In this document: in pieces, positions 20,883 to 26,587 of the stretch | Layout of the letters: every line of letters starts with the position of its first letter | Numbering within the stretch: position 1 is the first letter of the stretch | NCBI GenBank assembly: GCA_048940445.1 | Contig: JBHLON010000023.1 | Coordinates: forward strand, 1-56,310 | Direction of reading: 5' to 3' | Length of the DNA stretch: 56,310 bases | Source: Promethearchaeota archaeon | GTDB lineage: Archaea; Asgardarchaeota; Lokiarchaeia; Sigyniarchaeales; SOKP01 | Program-made: the position numbers and the translations under genes | The notes under the pieces: model-generated | The model's database searches: none | The model's input: only the letters and a program-made list of their open reading frames with translations | Told to the model about the DNA's origin: nothing

Positions 20883-22193
20883 TTAATCTATTTTTCTGAA
20901 TATTATTTTTCTTACCAAGAAAAAACTGCCAATGCTTAAAATCACTAGTATTATAAAGACATTATAACTTGGAATTGTAGTGGGAGCAACATATGGAATA
21001 TACTTTACCAGAACCATATCATACCCTCCTGCTCCGAAATTTTCTGTATAGCCTGCAAGATACACAGCATTTGATGAATCAATCGCTACACCCAAGGCAG
21101 TGTCATAGTTAGCCCCACCCCATGTATAATACCCATGTTCTACACCGTTGATATCATAATTCACCAGAACCATATCATAATCTCCCATTCCGAAACTTTC
21201 GGTTTCTCCCGCTAGATATACATTAGCTGAGGAATCTACTGCTATTCCATTACCAAAATCTTGGTCATTTCCACCCCATGTGCGATTCCATTGCTGTATT
21301 CCTTGTTGGTCATATTTTACCAGAACTATGTCCGCCTCTCCTCCTCCTAGACTCCATGTATGTCCTACAACATATATATTATCTGATTTATCCATTGCTA
21401 TATCAGAGCCAATATCTTGTTTAATTTCCCCCCATGTGCGATTCCATTGTTGTACTCCATTCAAATTATACTTTATTAAAACCATATCGCTATCTCCTCC
21501 TTCAACGCATTGTCCTGTAATATAAATATTACCCATTGAGTCTGTGACTATTCCATTTCCTTCTTCATAATCTATCCCTCCCCACGTTTGATTCCATAGT
21601 TGTTCACCATTTTTATCATATTTCACTAGAACTACATCATTATTTCCTAATCCAAAACTAGACGTAACTCCTGTAAGGTAAACATTTTCAAATGAATCTG
21701 TTGAACATCCATAACAACGATCAAAATCTATACCCCCCCATGTAGCGTTCCATAGTAACGTGCCATTTCCGTCATATTTCAATAAAAGCATGTCTTCATT
21801 TCCTGCTCCGAATCTCACTGTTGATCCCGCAAGATATATATTGTCTAATTGATCTATTGCTATATCAAAGCTAAAATCTCCGTTAATTCCTCCCCATGTG
21901 CGATTCCATTGTTGAACTCCATTTTTATCATATTTTACTAAAATTATATCCGCATCCATAGAACTAACATTATATCCTGTAAGATATACATTACTTAACG
22001 AATCTACTGCTACGCTTAAACCGTAATCATTTGTATTAGCTTCACCCCATGTACGATACCATTCAGATTTAATTGAATTGCTCGTAGCCAAAGAATTTAT
22101 ATTTACCTTCTCATTGTGTTTATTCTCGATACAATATGTTTCTTGTAGAAAAAAACCAACACACAAAATTAAAAGAAATACTGTTAAATACAT
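20883..22193 (-). CDS. Cell-surface beta-propeller (SBBP-type repeats) with Loki-CTERM-like sorting signal
   Basis: Signal peptide; about seven repeats of WNRTWGG..D.G..IA.D...N.Y..G....D..L.KY; C-terminal IPSYN + TM + RK. Confidence 0.88.
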   Translation of the reverse strand: MYLTVFLLILCVGFFLQETYCIENKHNEKVNINSLATSNSIKSEWYRTWGEANTNDYGLSVAVDSLSNVYLTGYNVSSMDADIILVKYDKNGVQQWNRTWGGINGDFSFDIAIDQLDNIYLAGSTVRFGAGNEDMLLLKYDGNGTLLWNATWGGIDFDRCYGCSTDSFENVYLTGVTSSFGLGNNDVVLVKYDKNGEQLWNQTWGGIDYEEGNGIVTDSMGNIYITGQCVEGGDSDMVLIKYNLNGVQQWNRTWGEIKQDIGSDIAMDKSDNIYVVGHTWSLGGGEADIVLVKYDQQGIQQWNRTWGGNDQDFGNGIAVDSSANVYLAGETESFGMGDYDMVLVNYDINGVEHGYYTWGGANYDTALGVAIDSSNAVYLAGYTENFGAGGYDMVLVKYIPYVAPTTIPSYNVFIILVILSIGSFFLVRKIIFRKID

Positions 22194-22492: not shown

Positions 22493-22810
22493 ATGGAAGA
22501 AGTTCCAGAAGAGAGAAAAATTGTAAGAATTGATCAAGTATATGTGGTTGGAGGAAGTTTTGATGATCCTTCAGATTTTACCAATAAGGTTAATCGAAAT
22601 CTTTTACTTTTACATGAAAGCAAAAAATATTATAGAATTAAAGATATAAAGTTCAATATTTTTAATGACCAACGATATCCTCAATCGACTCCTATTTATC
22701 TAGCCTTCATTGTTGCTGAAGTAGATGTAGATATTACCCCAGAACCAGAGAAAAAAAGAAAGAAGAAAAGAAAGCAAAAAAAAAAGAAAATGAGAAAATT
22801 ATTGTTCTAA
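22493..22810 (+). CDS. Small hypothetical protein (weak Cse60/DUF2758-like pattern) with polybasic tail
   Basis: FTNKVN..L, IKDIKF, YLAFIV pattern; tail KKRKKKRKQKKKKMRK. Confidence 0.55.
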   Translation: MEEVPEERKIVRIDQVYVVGGSFDDPSDFTNKVNRNLLLLHESKKYYRIKDIKFNIFNDQRYPQSTPIYLAFIVAEVDVDITPEPEKKRKKKRKQKKKKMRKLLF

Positions 22811-23045
22811 ATAATCTTTTAAATATGTTTTTAACAGCCGTTAATGAAATTTAATAATAAGTTAGTCTATTAATAATAAAGAGTAAGATCTTTCTTTTTC
22901 TTACAATTTCTCTTAGATCTACAAATAGTTTCGCAGAATCAAACCGATCTTGAGAGAATCTTTCTCTTATTTAAGATTAAATTTTAGGTTTTTTTAATAA
23001 AAATAAAGCAATAAACTTTTATTATAATATATTGAGGAAAATATT

Positions 23046-23378
23046 ATGACAAATGAGCTTGAAACTAAGACCAAAATTGATGAAATAGAAAAAAAATATA
23101 AAGAAAAGGAAGCTGAAATTCACGAAGAAATTTCAATAGAATATGATTCAGTACTCAACGAGATTTATTCGAAATATGAAAAAGATTATCGATATATGGG
23201 GAATGTTAAAAGAGAAGAAAGAGATTTAAAGGGGAGAATCTCTGAAATAAAATATGTTTTAAAGATATTTAAAAAAGAAATTTCAATTTTAAGCAAGAAT
23301 AAAAAGAGATTATTGAAACAAAGATTAAAAGAATTAAGAAGAGAGAAAAATGCAGAAATTATGAATTTGAAAAAATAA
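23046..23378 (+). CDS. Hypothetical coiled-coil protein
   Basis: 110 aa, K/E-rich heptad-like composition. Confidence 0.6.
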   Translation: MTNELETKTKIDEIEKKYKEKEAEIHEEISIEYDSVLNEIYSKYEKDYRYMGNVKREERDLKGRISEIKYVLKIFKKEISILSKNKKRLLKQRLKELRREKNAEIMNLKK

Positions 23379-23599
23379 ACTCTGCTAAAATGACCACTTA
23401 AATCAGATTTTCTTGAATACCAATCAGCTTTTTAATCTTATTTTATATGTTGGCTTATTCTTATTTTAACAACAATCTACCTATTAAGTGAATTCAGGTT
23501 ATCATTGCTTGTCCTATAAGTTCCTTCCAAAATAACAAATAGTACCAATTCATACAAGCAATTTAAATAATTACTTATGTTATATTAAATTGAAATACA

Positions 23600-23836
23600 A
23601 TGCAACAGTTATTCATAAAAAAATTAATATTCTGGATACTTCTATCTTTGAATGTATTATTCGCCTTTATAATCGGGCTCACAATTTCTTCAATGACATC
23701 AGAGAGTAGCCCTTTTCTTGGAATTATAGTCATTCCATTACTTGTAATACTTAACTATATCTACCTAGATCGATTCCATTTTTGGTTAAGAACAACTCCG
23801 AAAGAAGATAAAAAATCAAATAAGACTAGTAAATAA
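23600..23836 (+). CDS. Small two-TM membrane protein
   Basis: Two hydrophobic segments; TTTAAATA about 35 nt upstream; 12 nt before the sortase gene. Confidence 0.7.
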   Translation: MQQLFIKKLIFWILLSLNVLFAFIIGLTISSMTSESSPFLGIIVIPLLVILNYIYLDRFHFWLRTTPKEDKKSNKTSK

Positions 23837-23848
23837 ATAAAAGAAAGT

Positions 23849-24775
23849 ATGAGACTAGAAATTAAATTTAGAGGAAAAAAGTATAGTTTTTCAAATTTGG
23901 CTTTAATTGTATTTCCTCTGGGTTTAATAATATCAGTACCTTTTATCCTTCAATTTGATAAAACCACCGAACTTATATGGTTGCAAGAGTTATTTACAAA
24001 AAATGTTGTATTTTTTGAAAATCTTTTTTTCAATTTAGGAGTTTATGTAATCTATAACCCAACCTACTCCTGCCCCTGGCTTATTGGCTATTCTGATAAT
24101 GCTTTAGCATACGTAAATAATGGATGTACTGGATTTTTAACAATGAGTATTTTCGTTGCTGTAATTATTTTTGTACCTCATTCACAGGTTTCAAAAACTA
24201 AAGAGAACATCCTTTGGAGGAAGTCAATAGCTATTATTATTGCAATTTCATTTATTTATCTTTTCAATATTTTTCGATTAACAATACAAATCTATCTATA
24301 CACCCATGGATTTGCATGGAGCATTATTCATGATTCTGATGAGATGTTAGCTCTTACTGTTTCATTTCATATTGCTATTTTTTTACTCTGTTGCAAGTAT
24401 ATTCCAGAATTGTTTCTCTCAATTTTTTATTCGGGAAAACTCATAATCACTCAGCTTACAAAAAAAAGTATCGCAGAAACTATTTATGATATAAAGCATA
24501 GAGGCGAAAGAACCCAATATAACAAGGTTCGACAAATATTCAAAGATAAAGAAATGGACTTATATCTAATCAAAACAAATGATATTGACTTTCGCTTAAT
24601 GCAATTCCTAAGAAAAAGTAAAAATAAATATACAGTTAAAGCTATTAAAGATCGGTTATTTGGGCAACAAGAGAACATTTCTGAAGATTTACTTGATAAA
24701 ATGTTGCAAGTCTTTTCAGATATGAAATGGATACTTTCAAAAGAATTAGATGGCCAAATTTATTACTATATTTAA
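23849..24775 (+). CDS. Exosortase/archaeosortase family protein (ArtH-like) with C-terminal winged-helix-like extension
   Basis: Multi-TM; catalytic pattern Cys (NNGCTG), Arg (FNIFRL), His (IIHD); soluble C-terminal ~110 aa. Confidence 0.82.
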   Translation: MRLEIKFRGKKYSFSNLALIVFPLGLIISVPFILQFDKTTELIWLQELFTKNVVFFENLFFNLGVYVIYNPTYSCPWLIGYSDNALAYVNNGCTGFLTMSIFVAVIIFVPHSQVSKTKENILWRKSIAIIIAISFIYLFNIFRLTIQIYLYTHGFAWSIIHDSDEMLALTVSFHIAIFLLCCKYIPELFLSIFYSGKLIITQLTKKSIAETIYDIKHRGERTQYNKVRQIFKDKEMDLYLIKTNDIDFRLMQFLRKSKNKYTVKAIKDRLFGQQENISEDLLDKMLQVFSDMKWILSKELDGQIYYYI

Positions 24776-24849: not shown

Positions 24850-25929
24850 TTAAGTTATTTTTATAGGATAATAGCCATATTTTTCAATTGTTTTTGGAAT
24901 TGCTAAGATATTGGGAAGTGGTACTCCCCATGGTAGGCTACAAACGGGGCAACAAATATATCTACCCTCAGGAGCTAAGTTTAAGATATTTTCTTTTACC
25001 TTTTCTTCAACATCAGAAGGAGTTCCTGTGAACATTTCTCTACTTACATCAATATTAGCACCTATTATAGTAATTTTTGGATACTTTTTTCTAAAATCAA
25101 TCCAATATTCAATATCTAAAGGATGACTACCATTAACCGCAACAAAGTCAATTTCCTTAACGACCTTTGTAAAATATGGTGAAGTTCCACAATTATGGAG
25201 CATAAAAGGAACTTTTATTTTATTCATCATTCTCTTAATAAACTGCCCTTCATAGCGCATAGAATCTTGAAAACTCATCATATGACGATTAAATGAGTAT
25301 CCTGCAATAAAAACATTAGGAGGCATACCTACAATTTCAAGCCAATTCTCATAAATATCCATTTGAGATTCATAAATTTTTTCGCAGAGTTTTAACAATA
25401 AATCTGGATTTCGACGCATATCCTTATAAGCTTCTATTCCACGTAACTCCTGGACAACAGACCAAATACTTAAGCTGATTACCTGAGGAAATTTAATTTT
25501 TTCATGAATCATTTTGGCAGCTAGTAAAGACGTTCTCCATAGATTACACCTATTATGATCTGGAATTTCTAACTTTTCAATATCTTCTTCAGATTTACAA
25601 ATCTCTCCTTGTTTGCACATTAGAGGTTTATAATCAAACCATTTAATTGCTTCTAATTTGTTGTTCGCTTCCGCAAATGCTAATGCTTCACTTGGGCCTG
25701 CGTAGGCACTTGGGACATTTATAGAATCTGTATTTAAAAACTCAAAAGTGTTTATAATAGAATTAGCATAAATCTTTGGGGAACTATATAATTCTTTCAC
25801 AGTTTTTCCTGTTACTCGACAAATCATTTGTTCTCCTGCGAATGCAAGAAATGGAACTTTATCAACTCTTTTTGATCCTGCTATTACCCTAAATATTCTA
25901 TTAACAGAAGCAGTCCAATCTTTGCCCAA
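24850..25929 (-). CDS. Uroporphyrinogen decarboxylase-fold MtaA/CmuA-like methyltransferase
   Basis: DKVP, EALAF, ELRG, Zn-binding HNCG, GANID, CPVCSL; downstream of the corrinoid gene. Confidence 0.8.
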   Translation of the reverse strand: MGKDWTASVNRIFRVIAGSKRVDKVPFLAFAGEQMICRVTGKTVKELYSSPKIYANSIINTFEFLNTDSINVPSAYAGPSEALAFAEANNKLEAIKWFDYKPLMCKQGEICKSEEDIEKLEIPDHNRCNLWRTSLLAAKMIHEKIKFPQVISLSIWSVVQELRGIEAYKDMRRNPDLLLKLCEKIYESQMDIYENWLEIVGMPPNVFIAGYSFNRHMMSFQDSMRYEGQFIKRMMNKIKVPFMLHNCGTSPYFTKVVKEIDFVAVNGSHPLDIEYWIDFRKKYPKITIIGANIDVSREMFTGTPSDVEEKVKENILNLAPEGRYICCPVCSLPWGVPLPNILAIPKTIEKYGYYPIKIT

Positions 25930-25951
25930 TTTATTATTTCACCTCATAGAT

Positions 25952-26587
25952 TCAAATTAAAGTATTTATTTTTTTAACTCCTTCCCAACCATCTTTGGCA
26001 AAATCATCTGCTCCTATCATTTCACACGACTCTTTTGATAAAATTCCACCACCAACGATTATTCGAGACTTTATATTTCCATTCTTAAGTAAATTAACTG
26101 TTTCAACCATTTTAGAGATGCTCATTGTCATTAATCCACTTAATCCTATCAGTCTGGGATTTATTTCTTTTGCTTTTCGAAGAAATTCTTCTGGTGGAAC
26201 ATCAGATCCTAGATCAACAACTTCAAAGCCTTGTCCTTGCAAGAGTGAGACTACCAAACTCTTCCCTAGATCATGAATATCACCTTCCACAGTACCAATT
26301 AATATAGTACCTTTAGATTCTATTACAGATTTTTCATTTAATGAATTTTTCAATATCTTAGTAGCAGCATTTATTGCATCACCAGTCATGAGTAGATCAG
26401 GAAGAAAGTATTCATCATTTTCATATAAATTACCAGCTTCTTCAGCACCTTTAAGAATTGCTCTATTCAAAATCTCTTTGAATTTTATTCCCATTTTAAT
26501 AGATTCATTAACCAATTCAATTGAATTATTTGGATCTCCTTTTAAAATTGCGTTTTTTAATTTTTTTAATAATTCTTCTTCATCCAT
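25952..26587 (-). CDS. Corrinoid (cobalamin-binding) methyl-carrier protein, MtaC/MttC-like
   Basis: Cap domain EYFLPDL; GTVEGDIHDLGK, DLGSDVP, GLSGLM, VGGG. Confidence 0.93.
   Translation of the reverse strand: MDEEELLKKLKNAILKGDPNNSIELVNESIKMGIKFKEILNRAILKGAEEAGNLYENDEYFLPDLLMTGDAINAATKILKNSLNEKSVIESKGTILIGTVEGDIHDLGKSLVVSLLQGQGFEVVDLGSDVPPEEFLRKAKEINPRLIGLSGLMTMSISKMVETVNLLKNGNIKSRIIVGGGILSKESCEMIGADDFAKDGWEGVKKINTLI

What the first reader, a model, noticed from the sequence alone, without database searches (positions are those of the whole stretch)
23600..24775. Sortase fused to a cytoplasmic winged-helix-like domain, with a small 2-TM partner
Seen: after the last TM, IDFRLMQFLRKSKNKYTVKAIKDRLF..ISEDLLDKMLQVFSDMKWILSKELDGQIYYYI has the helix-turn-helix + beta-wing pattern of BlaI/Fur/MarR-like wHTH domains. 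A 78-aa 2-TM gene lies 12 nt upstream under the same TATA box. Known: the exo/archaeosortases I know are membrane-only enzymes. Inference: a possible one-component system linking surface-protein processing to transcription or DNA tethering, perhaps by self-cleavage releasing the wHTH; alternatively the wHTH is a protein-interaction module.
Basis: partly seen in the sequence, partly recalled or inferred. Interest (0 to 1): 0.7.

Follow-up and report, generated by a model that had tools for sequence, protein, structure and literature searches.

The report
Loki archaeosortase with winged-helix tail
A Loki-type Asgard archaeon encodes its surface-protein-anchoring enzyme (an archaeosortase H relative) as a small membrane subunit plus a catalytic subunit with an undescribed, conserved winged-helix domain on the cytoplasmic side, which looks more like a docking module than a gene regulator.

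Summary
A 78-aa two-helix membrane gene (23600-23836) lies 12 nt before a 308-aa archaeosortase gene (23849-24775). They share one conserved TATA-like box.

The small protein belongs to a curated family, the archaeosortase H N-terminal module. It is fused to the enzyme in canonical ArtH and in some orthologs.

The large protein has the exosortase/archaeosortase core (Cys93, Arg143, His161), but it scores below the ArtH equivalog cut-off. It heads a separate Lokiarchaeial clade.

Residues 222-308 fold with high confidence as a winged helix. The best structural matches are Fur, PerR and ArsR. By sequence the domain occurs only in this clade. It evolves under purifying selection, was gained once and lost at least twice.

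Its would-be DNA-recognition helix is conserved acidic. Sortase-type cleavage at the outer membrane face could not release it. The transcription and self-cleavage reading is therefore unlikely. I favour a cytoplasmic docking or positioning module, which is an inference.

This genome has at least 20 IPGY-type (Loki-CTERM) proteins and no canonical ArtH, so this enzyme is probably the general sorter.

Earlier notes of this scan report cytoplasmic winged-helix tails on Bathyarchaeial exosortases in other DNA. I did not recheck those notes. This is a new variant of a known system.

The parts
23562..23569 (+). TATA-like box (TTTAAATA), the putative shared promoter of the two-gene operon
   Evidence: Sequence. 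The TTTAAA core is invariant in 7 orthologous upstream regions while the flanks diverge. Function as a promoter is inferred; no RNA data were available.
23600..23836 (+). 78-aa two-TM subunit, a member of the ArtH N-terminal module family. Predicted topology is N-in/C-in, with a lysine-rich cytoplasmic tail.
   Evidence: NF041739 at 79 bits against a cut-off of 55. Two hydrophobic helices. Directly upstream of the enzyme in the window, L005-L009 and one further contig. Fused to the enzyme in L012, P0015 and canonical ArtH P0026. Invariant G26, S34 and P46.
23834..23848 (+). Single in-frame TAA stop plus a 12-nt spacer between the two ORFs; this is the split point of an otherwise fused architecture
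   Evidence: A tblastn search with canonical ArtH runs across both ORFs in one frame at 38% identity over 289 aa.
23849..24460 (+). Archaeosortase core (residues 1-204). Motifs are C93-x-G (24125-24133), N140-x-x-R143 (24266-24277) and H161 (24329-24331).
   Evidence: TIGR04178 at 34.4 bits against a cut-off of 23. NF041736 ArtH at 135.7 bits against a cut-off of 200, covering residues 4-204. C93, R143 and H161 are invariant in 27 homologs. Motifs match those defined for EpsH in PMC1569441.
24461..24511 (+). Basic cytoplasmic linker helix (residues 205-221) that continues the last membrane helix
   Evidence: The AF2 helix spans residues 164-216. Net positive charge.
24512..24775 (+). Winged-helix domain (residues 222-308, followed by the stop codon). 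It has two leading helices (224-243), H1 246-256, H2 263-271, an acidic H3 279-291, and a wing at 296-307.
   Evidence: pLDDT of about 90. Fold matches to Fur, PerR, ArsR, BlaI and Z-alpha, and to non-DNA-binding winged helices. Charge analysis. dN/dS of 0.25-0.40.
20883..22193 (-). Neighbouring SBBP beta-propeller surface protein with a Loki-CTERM-type tail (IPSYN + TM + basic tail). It is a likely substrate, but the adjacency is not conserved.
   Evidence: PF06739 at 1e-31. Loki-CTERM at 22.2 bits in the genome search, over the cut-off. Tail sequence. It is not next to the enzyme in L005-L007.

Best explanation
The locus is a two-gene operon that encodes an archaeosortase H-like enzyme in two pieces.

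The 78-aa protein is the detached N-terminal two-helix membrane module of ArtH. The 308-aa protein is the catalytic subunit. By analogy with EpsH and ArtA, its Cys93, Arg143 and His161 lie at the outer membrane face. There they would cut the C-terminal 'IPG(Y/F) + membrane helix + basic tail' (Loki-CTERM) signal of secreted proteins and transfer the proteins to a new anchor.

The assembly lacks canonical ArtH, and its only other paralog sits beside a private IPGF-type target. This enzyme is therefore probably the general sorter for the 20 or more Loki-CTERM proteins of this genome.

The last membrane helix continues into a basic helical linker and an ~85-residue winged-helix domain in the cytoplasm. 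That domain is a clade-specific accessory module kept by selection.

I infer that it is a docking or positioning module and not a DNA reader. Its basic H1/H2 face would lie near the membrane. Its conserved acidic H3 face could bind a basic partner, such as the basic cytoplasmic tails of substrates or of the small subunit, or a localisation factor.

Shown: the gene pair, family membership, catalytic motifs, the fold, conservation, and the pattern of gain and loss. Inferred: topology, substrates, operon status, and the role of the winged helix.
For: Family and motifs.

Partner: NF041739 is over its cut-off. Adjacency is conserved in loci with otherwise different neighbours. Fused forms exist. 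The two ORFs share a frame and are split by one stop codon. A TATA-like box is conserved.

Substrates: 20 Loki-CTERM hits are over the cut-off, with an IPG(Y/F) consensus.

No canonical ArtH in the assembly. The same is true of three other genomes that carry the winged-helix variant (G232, G240, G246).

Winged-helix fold.

Purifying selection: dN/dS is 0.25-0.40 for the winged helix and 0.23-0.33 for the core.

Acidic H3 and basic H1/H2.

Topology: loops 62-92 and 146-165 contain no Lys or Arg. The N-terminus, loop 108-124 and the tail are Lys/Arg-rich. Cys-pair inserts occur in the 62-92 loop of some orthologs. The EpsH model places the triad at the outer face (PMC1569441).

Other ArtH lineages carry different cytoplasmic tails, namely a double zinc ribbon and an unrelated ~90-aa tail. 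This fits an interchangeable adaptor role.
Against: No experiment or RNA data exist for any ArtH-family enzyme. I found no paper on Loki-CTERM.

The protein scores below the ArtH equivalog cut-off, so its specificity could differ from that of ArtH.

The genome is 93% complete, so a canonical ArtH could be unassembled.

The best fold matches are DNA-binding domains (Fur, PerR, ArsR), and K284 on H3 is conserved as K or R. DNA binding is therefore not excluded.

No partner for the winged helix has been identified. The domain has been lost in the closest sister proteins, so it is dispensable for catalysis.

Five winged-helix-bearing orthologs lack an adjacent small gene.
Confidence: 0.6

Rival explanations
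1. Membrane-tethered one-component regulator. The winged helix binds DNA and couples surface-protein processing or envelope state to transcription, or it tethers DNA to the membrane, as ToxR and CadC do in bacteria or ArnR does in Sulfolobus.
For: The closest folds are DNA-binding domains: Fur, Zur, PerR, ArsR and BlaI/MecI, at Z 8-9.9. The whole tail is net positive, +5 on average. K284 on H3 is K or R in 18 of 22 orthologs. There is a weak sub-threshold Pfam FUR hit.
Against: H3 carries conserved E279, D280 and E283 at the positions that normally face the major groove, with a net charge of -1 to -4 in all 22 orthologs. The wing tip is acidic or neutral. No DNA-binding family reaches its threshold. 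Non-DNA-binding winged helices (ESCRT-II, cullin, O-methyltransferase dimerisation domains) score almost as well. The domain has been lost in sister proteins with no other change at the locus. Orthologous enzymes elsewhere carry unrelated tails instead.
Confidence: 0.12
2. The winged helix is a homodimerisation or structural domain that holds two sortase units together or stabilises the enzyme. It would have no external partner.
For: Winged-helix domains serve as dimerisation modules in plant O-methyltransferases, which appear among the matches. Many conserved residues are hydrophobic core positions.
Against: Charged surface residues (K260, K267, R269, E275, E279, E283) are conserved beyond the core. 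Sister proteins work without the domain. No dimer test could be run here.
Confidence: 0.15
3. Autoproteolytic release. The sortase cuts itself, and the freed winged helix acts in the cytoplasm.
For: None beyond the architecture. An H. volcanii ArtA substrate with an internal signal yields a long C-terminal fragment (PMC6098224).
Against: The enzyme has no IPG(Y/F)-like signal before its last membrane helix. Cleavage occurs at the outer face, N-terminal to a membrane helix, so the fragment would stay anchored in the membrane (PMC1569441). The IPE motif at the inner end of the last helix is invariant even in clades that lack the winged helix.
Confidence: 0.03
4. The tail is an evolutionary passenger with no present function.
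For: It was lost at least twice, including in the closest sister lineage. The fusion is confined to about 9 of the 134 related genomes sampled.
Against: dN/dS is 0.25-0.40, about the same as for the catalytic core. Eight columns are invariant and 18 nearly so across 22 orthologs at 42-80% identity. The fold is predicted with high confidence.
Confidence: 0.05

Closest known systems
Archaeosortase H (NCBIfam NF041736) with its N-terminal module (NF041739) and the Loki-CTERM sorting domain (NF033507)
   Same: The core is the same, with CxG, NxxR and His motifs, and the model aligns end to end over residues 4-204. The same two-helix N-terminal module is present. IPG(Y/F) + TM + basic-tail proteins occur in the genome. 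It comes from the same archaeal family.
   Different: It scores 135.7 bits against the 200-bit equivalog cut-off and forms a separate, well-supported clade. The N-terminal module is a separate gene here. It carries an ~85-residue C-terminal winged helix that canonical ArtH lacks. ArtH itself is a curated prediction with no experimental work that I could find.
ArtA / PGF-CTERM system of Haloferax volcanii (the only archaeosortase studied experimentally)
   Same: Same superfamily signature (TIGR04178) and the same tripartite C-terminal signal logic. The PGF and IPGY/IPGF motifs are alike. Cys and Arg are needed for catalysis (PMC6098224).
   Different: The match to the ArtA model is weak, 16.5 bits against a cut-off of 75. 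The core is much smaller. ArtA has no split N-terminal subunit and no cytoplasmic winged helix.
Exosortases of Bathyarchaeia and Nitrososphaeria with a zinc ribbon, an EpsI-like ectodomain and a cytoplasmic winged-helix tail
   Same: An exosortase-family enzyme ends in a cytoplasmic winged helix that was judged unlikely to bind DNA.
   Different: The core is a different subfamily (XrtD-like rather than ArtH-like), with additional modules. My winged-helix profile found no such protein by sequence. The tails are therefore either convergent or too diverged to detect. I did not compare the structures.
Fur/PerR/Zur and ArsR/BlaI winged-helix DNA-binding domains
   Same: The fold and helix order are the same, including the leading helices: Fur 2xig at Z 9.9, with 87 of 109 residues aligned.
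   Different: Identity is 12-16%. The match is below the Pfam threshold (FUR 12.5 bits against 23.1). There is no metal-binding or dimerisation domain. The recognition helix is acidic. The domain is tethered to a polytopic membrane enzyme.
Membrane-anchored HTH regulators (ToxR and CadC; ArnR of Sulfolobus), named from my own knowledge
   Same: A helix-turn-helix-type domain is held at the inner membrane face by membrane helices.
   Different: Those proteins have recognised DNA-binding families and sensor domains. Here the membrane part is an enzyme, and the helix-turn-helix lacks the charge pattern of a DNA reader.

Membership tests
Exosortase/archaeosortase superfamily (TIGR04178 signature; EpsH, PF09721) | Signature-region HMM above the curated cut-off | tested here: met
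   TIGR04178 at 34.4 bits against a cut-off of 23, residues 89-185. Many orthologs carry precomputed PF09721. Pfam itself gave no hit for this copy.
Exosortase/archaeosortase superfamily (TIGR04178 signature; EpsH, PF09721) | Invariant Cys-x-Gly, Asn-x-x-Arg and His motifs at the ends of three consecutive membrane helices (PMC1569441) | tested here: met
   C93-T-G95, N140-x-x-R143 and H161 are invariant in 27 homologs. They flank predicted helices 95-107, 115-152 and 164 onward. The Gly of H-x-x-x-G is Glu in this copy but Gly in most orthologs.
Exosortase/archaeosortase superfamily (TIGR04178 signature; EpsH, PF09721) | Several proteins in the same genome with a cognate C-terminal motif + TM + basic tail | tested here: met
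   20 Loki-CTERM hits over the cut-off, with an IPG(Y/F) consensus.
Exosortase/archaeosortase superfamily (TIGR04178 signature; EpsH, PF09721) | Proteolytic or transpeptidase activity on those signals | not testable with these tools
   No biochemical data exist; this needs a reporter processing assay.
Archaeosortase H proper (NF041736 equivalog) | Whole-protein score at or above the 200-bit equivalog cut-off | tested here: not met
   135.7 bits. Canonical members score about 320 bits.
Archaeosortase H proper (NF041736 equivalog) | Groups with canonical ArtH in a tree of the core | tested here: not met
   It forms a separate clade with SH-aLRT support of 100. Canonical ArtH forms its own clade with support of 99 (quick tree, rooted on the canonical sequences by choice).
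Archaeosortase H proper (NF041736 equivalog) | ArtH N-terminal two-helix module present | tested here: met
   Supplied in trans by the 78-aa gene: NF041739 at 79 bits against a cut-off of 55.
Winged-helix fold | H1-b-H2-H3-b-b topology with confident structural matches | tested here: met
   (pLDDT about 90); every top match is a winged helix, Z up to 9.9.
DNA-binding wHTH regulator families (Fur PF01475, BlaI/MecI PF03965, ArsR PF01022) | Family HMM above the gathering threshold | tested here: not met
   FUR scores 12.5 bits against 23.1. No other regulator family is listed at E up to 10.
DNA-binding wHTH regulator families (Fur PF01475, BlaI/MecI PF03965, ArsR PF01022) | Polar or basic recognition helix and wing suited to the major groove | tested here: not met
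   H3 has a net charge of -1 to -4 in 22 of 22 orthologs, with conserved E279, D280 and E283. This is a sequence-based inference, not a binding assay.
DNA-binding wHTH regulator families (Fur PF01475, BlaI/MecI PF03965, ArsR PF01022) | Binds DNA | not testable with these tools
   Needs EMSA or anisotropy with residues 222-308.

The most novel reading that the evidence does not exclude
The winged-helix tail is a nucleic-acid-binding output domain after all. In that case an archaeosortase would act as a membrane-tethered regulator that reports surface-protein load or envelope state directly to the chromosome. The repeated recruitment of winged-helix and zinc-ribbon tails by exosortase-family enzymes in Lokiarchaeia and, per unchecked earlier notes, Bathyarchaeia would then mark a general, undescribed link between C-terminal protein sorting and gene control in archaea.
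Probability: 0.1. Interest if true: 0.8.

Novelty: new variant of a known kind. Interest (0 to 1): 0.45.

Why it matters
How Asgard archaea, the closest prokaryotic relatives of eukaryotes, build their cell surface is almost unknown. The ArtH/Loki-CTERM system exists only as curated database models.

This locus shows that one Lokiarchaeial lineage runs that system with a distinct paralog. The paralog is split into two subunits and has a selected cytoplasmic winged helix. Other ArtH lineages carry different cytoplasmic tails.

This points to an unstudied cytoplasmic step in C-terminal protein sorting, such as substrate-tail recognition, localisation or regulation. It also supplies a small soluble domain that can be expressed and tested directly.

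It is an extension of a known system and not a new kind of system.

Tried and rejected
- **Complex prediction:** the 308-aa enzyme with the 78-aa partner, both as alignments, gave no verdict (score 0.00, controls not run). This says nothing for or against binding.
- **RNA evidence for co-transcription:** no RNA holder was listed. Only DNA metagenome runs hold the stretch, and I did not lay reads.
- **Pfam on the full 308-aa protein:** no family.
- **Pfam on the tail alone:** only sub-threshold hits (ssDNA-exonuc_C, GNAT_acetyltran, NGO1945_C, BpsA_C, FUR).
- **Exhaustive phmmer search of the tail against 1.84 billion representatives:** it returned only its own family and one repeat-protein artefact.
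- **Profile of the tail against 5.8 billion proteins:** the shorter range gave only gene fragments and the longer range only the same archaeosortase clade. Word-index limits apply.
- **ESM Atlas by features:** scores of 0.79-0.82, which are leads only. The tail of another ArtH lineage gave nothing.
- **PDB by sequence profile:** no hits.
- **Foldseek with the full-length model:** it matched only the winged-helix part, so the membrane core has no solved relative.
- **Sigma-70 promoter and terminator scan:** uninformative for an archaeon, with counts at shuffle level.
- **Literature:** no paper mentions Loki-CTERM. One search term (ArtH) was swamped by 'arthritis'. Haft 2012 (PMC3256604) is not held.
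- **Substrate adjacency:** I considered the adjacent SBBP propeller as a dedicated substrate and rejected it, because the adjacency is not conserved in orthologous loci.
- **Paralogs of 304-323 aa:** I checked whether these ArtH paralogs in other genomes hide divergent winged-helix tails. They do not; their extra length is an N-terminal module.

Full report
**What is there.** Two co-oriented ORFs fill the stated interval. The first, 23600-23836, encodes 78 aa with two strongly hydrophobic helices and a lysine-rich tail. The second, 23849-24775, encodes 308 aa. The quoted C-terminal sequence is residues 246-308. The spacer is 12 nt. The two ORFs also share a reading frame, separated only by one TAA and four codons. 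A tblastn search with a canonical fused ArtH runs straight across both at 38% identity over 289 aa. The window is about 30% G+C. Its homologs are labelled Promethearchaeota, that is, Lokiarchaeia.

**Family assignment.**
- The 308-aa protein matches the exosortase/archaeosortase signature TIGR04178 at 34.4 bits (cut-off 23).
- It aligns end to end over residues 4-204 with NCBIfam archaeosortase H (NF041736), but at 135.7 bits, below the 200-bit equivalog cut-off.
- The 78-aa protein matches NF041739, the 'ArtH N-terminal-like domain', at 79 bits (cut-off 55).
- Canonical ArtH (P0026, 326 bits) carries that module, duplicated, fused in front of the core and has no C-terminal extension.
- C93, R143 and H161 are invariant in 27 homologs. 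They sit in the C-x-G, N-x-x-R and His motifs that define the EpsH family.
- For EpsH the triad was predicted to lie at the outer ends of three consecutive membrane helices (PMC1569441).

**Topology (inferred).** Loops 62-92 and 146-165 contain no Lys or Arg. The N-terminus, loop 108-124 and everything after residue 186 are rich in them. Some orthologs have Cys-pair inserts in the 62-92 loop. In the fused forms the basic linker after the N-terminal module leads into the core's N-terminus. Together with the EpsH model, this places the triad outside and the C-terminal tail inside. The status of helix 40-61, which is amphipathic with invariant E47, K51 and N58, is unclear. It may lie at the outer interface and not span the membrane.

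**The C-terminal domain.**
- AlphaFold2 on the 27-sequence alignment gives pLDDT of 83-94 for residues 222-308. The tail alone (22 sequences) gives a mean of 83 and about 90-95 over the core.
- The topology is two leading helices, then H1, a short strand, H2, H3 and a beta-hairpin, which is a winged helix.
- Foldseek finds only winged-helix proteins at the top: Fur, PerR, Zur, ArsR/SmtB, Z-alpha and O-methyltransferase dimerisation domains. The best E-value is 2.5e-3 with TM about 0.5.
- An exhaustive alignment against 48,161 chains gives Fur 2xig at Z 9.9 (87 residues, rmsd 2.9). All 50 top entries are winged helices. They include non-DNA-binding ones such as ESCRT-II and cullin.
- The ESM Atlas agrees, with Fur and BlaI/MecI at TM 0.62.

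**Is it a DNA reader?** Probably not. Across 22 orthologs the H3 'recognition' helix has a net charge between -1 and -4 (mean -2.2). E279, D280 and E283 are nearly invariant at its N-terminal, groove-facing end, and the wing tip is acidic or neutral. The basic residues cluster on H1, H2 and the membrane-proximal linker. No DNA-binding Pfam family passes its threshold; FUR scores 12.5 bits against 23.1. The argument from charge rests on general knowledge of how helix-turn-helix domains meet DNA. It is not a measurement. K284 is conserved as K or R, so I leave about 12% for DNA binding. Release by self-cleavage is unlikely for two reasons. The enzyme has no IPG(Y/F)-type signal. A cut at the outer face would also leave the last membrane helix attached to the domain.

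**Conservation and history.**
- The tail is present in about 30 homologs of 270-392 aa at 37-83% identity.
- By sequence it is found nowhere else. A phmmer search against 1.84 billion representatives and profile searches of 5.8 billion proteins return only this clade and fragments of it.
- In 400 Asgard genomes the profile hits strongly in only 9, all in the window's taxonomic family (genera g1 and g12). It also hits weakly in a few small proteins.
- The two of these I examined (L017, 164 aa; L019, 150 aa) also carry N-terminal membrane helices. They are distant homologs by hhalign, with probabilities of 96.6% and 92.6%.
- dN/dS for the tail is 0.25-0.40, against 0.23-0.33 for the catalytic core in the same pairs.
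- A quick maximum-likelihood tree of the core (45 rows, 204 columns, rooted on canonical ArtH by choice) gives three supported clades: canonical ArtH (99); a paralog clade that holds this genome's second copy (98); and the winged-helix clade (100).
- The three members without the tail are nested inside the winged-helix clade. P0014 and P0022 are sister to the window's protein plus P0002 (support 98). L025 is sister to L013 and L015 (support 88).
- This pattern means one gain and at least two losses. In L005 the tail-less P0022 still has its 77-aa partner, overlapping by 4 nt.

**The partner.** A 77-79-aa homolog lies directly upstream in the window, L005, L006, L007, L008, L009, L025 and a further contig, although the surrounding genes differ. 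It is fused to the enzyme in L012 (392 aa) and P0015. It is absent upstream in L011 and L013-L016. In three of those genomes the only ArtH_Nterm copy sits with the canonical ArtH. A TATA-like box is conserved upstream of the small gene. Its TTTAAA core is invariant in seven loci whose flanks have diverged. There is no room for a second promoter in the 12-nt spacer, although an internal promoter cannot be excluded. The partner is thus real, but it is an already-curated family and a common feature of ArtH systems.

**Role in this genome.**
- The assembly (3.64 Mb, 93% complete) has only two exosortase-family genes: this one, and a 232-aa paralog on contig 19.
- The paralog follows a protein that ends in an IPGFEP + TM + basic tail. 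I saw the same arrangement but did not test it further.
- The genome encodes 20 proteins over the Loki-CTERM cut-off, with the consensus IPG(Y/F)(N/D/S) + TM + basic tail. One of them is the SBBP propeller 1.4 kb away.
- Canonical ArtH is nearly universal in the family (125 of 134 genomes match the ArtH model). It is missing from this genome and from three other winged-helix-bearing genomes (G232, G240, G246). Five others have both forms.
- I therefore infer that the winged-helix paralog is the general Loki-CTERM sorter here.

**Context from other lineages.** Canonical ArtH in other genera ends in different cytoplasmic tails. One is a double zinc ribbon (L026; PF12773 at 30.1 bits against 27.3). 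Another is an unrelated ~90-aa tail shared by L028 and L029 (E 2e-12 to each other, no similarity to this winged helix). Earlier notes of this scan describe Bathyarchaeial and Nitrososphaerial exosortases with cytoplasmic winged-helix tails that were judged unlikely to bind DNA. My profile does not detect them, so homology is unproven. Interchangeable cytoplasmic tails on one enzyme family fit an adaptor role better than a dedicated transcription factor.

**Verdict.** The transcription-coupling interpretation is not supported. I found no literature on ArtH or Loki-CTERM in the held library, and no solved structure of any relative of the core. This is a new architectural variant of a known, though experimentally untouched, sorting system.

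Noticed in passing
L002:506-1893 (G000 contig 19): The genome's second archaeosortase paralog (232 aa; ArtH model 99.5 bits; no tail). It directly follows a 213-aa protein with an N-terminal zinc ribbon, several membrane helices and an IPGFEP + TM + basic C-terminal signal.
   Followed up: partly
L026:887-2599, L028:844-2223, L029:936-2276: Canonical ArtH of other Lokiarchaeial genera carries other cytoplasmic C-terminal tails. L026 has a double zinc ribbon, plus four N-terminal two-helix modules. L028 and L029 share an unrelated ~90-aa tail whose sequence pattern looks helix-turn-helix-like.
   Followed up: partly
L017:1450-1944 (-), L019:1270-1722 (+): Small membrane-anchored proteins (164 and 150 aa) whose cytoplasmic part is a distant homolog of the winged-helix tail. 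This suggests a Lokiarchaeial family of membrane-tethered winged helices. The L019 copy lies next to a rhomboid-like protease and a response-regulator receiver gene.
   Followed up: partly
window 23834-23848: The small and large ORFs are in one frame, split by a single TAA and four codons. The same holds in L006 and L009, and in L008 with two stops, but not in L005 or L007. The arrangement looks like a recent split of a fused gene. Stop-codon read-through to a fused protein is conceivable but untested.
   Followed up: partly
P0008, P0010, P0013, P0017 (alignment A1, columns ~250-261): Some orthologs have an 11-residue insert with paired cysteines in the loop just before the catalytic Cys. This fits an extracellular, disulfide-bonded loop.
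   Followed up: no
G000, G232, G240, G246: Four genomes with the winged-helix paralog have no canonical ArtH, while nearly all other genomes of the same genus do. This suggests the paralog has displaced the canonical enzyme in a sub-lineage. I did not check the species phylogeny.
   Followed up: partly
window 22493-23378: Two small genes lie upstream: a 105-aa protein with a poly-lysine tail and a 110-aa coiled-coil protein. They are conserved next to the operon only in the closest relative (L006) and have no family hits.
   Followed up: no
window 24850-26587 (-): Convergent downstream genes encode a URO-D/MtaA-like methyltransferase and a corrinoid (B12-binding) protein. This is a methyl-transfer pair unrelated to the sortase operon, but it is syntenic in L006.
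   Followed up: no
L024:46-519 (G163): Another ArtH paralog directly follows a small secreted protein that ends in PGFEP + TM + basic tail. This is a second example of the 'private target next to paralog' arrangement.
   Followed up: no
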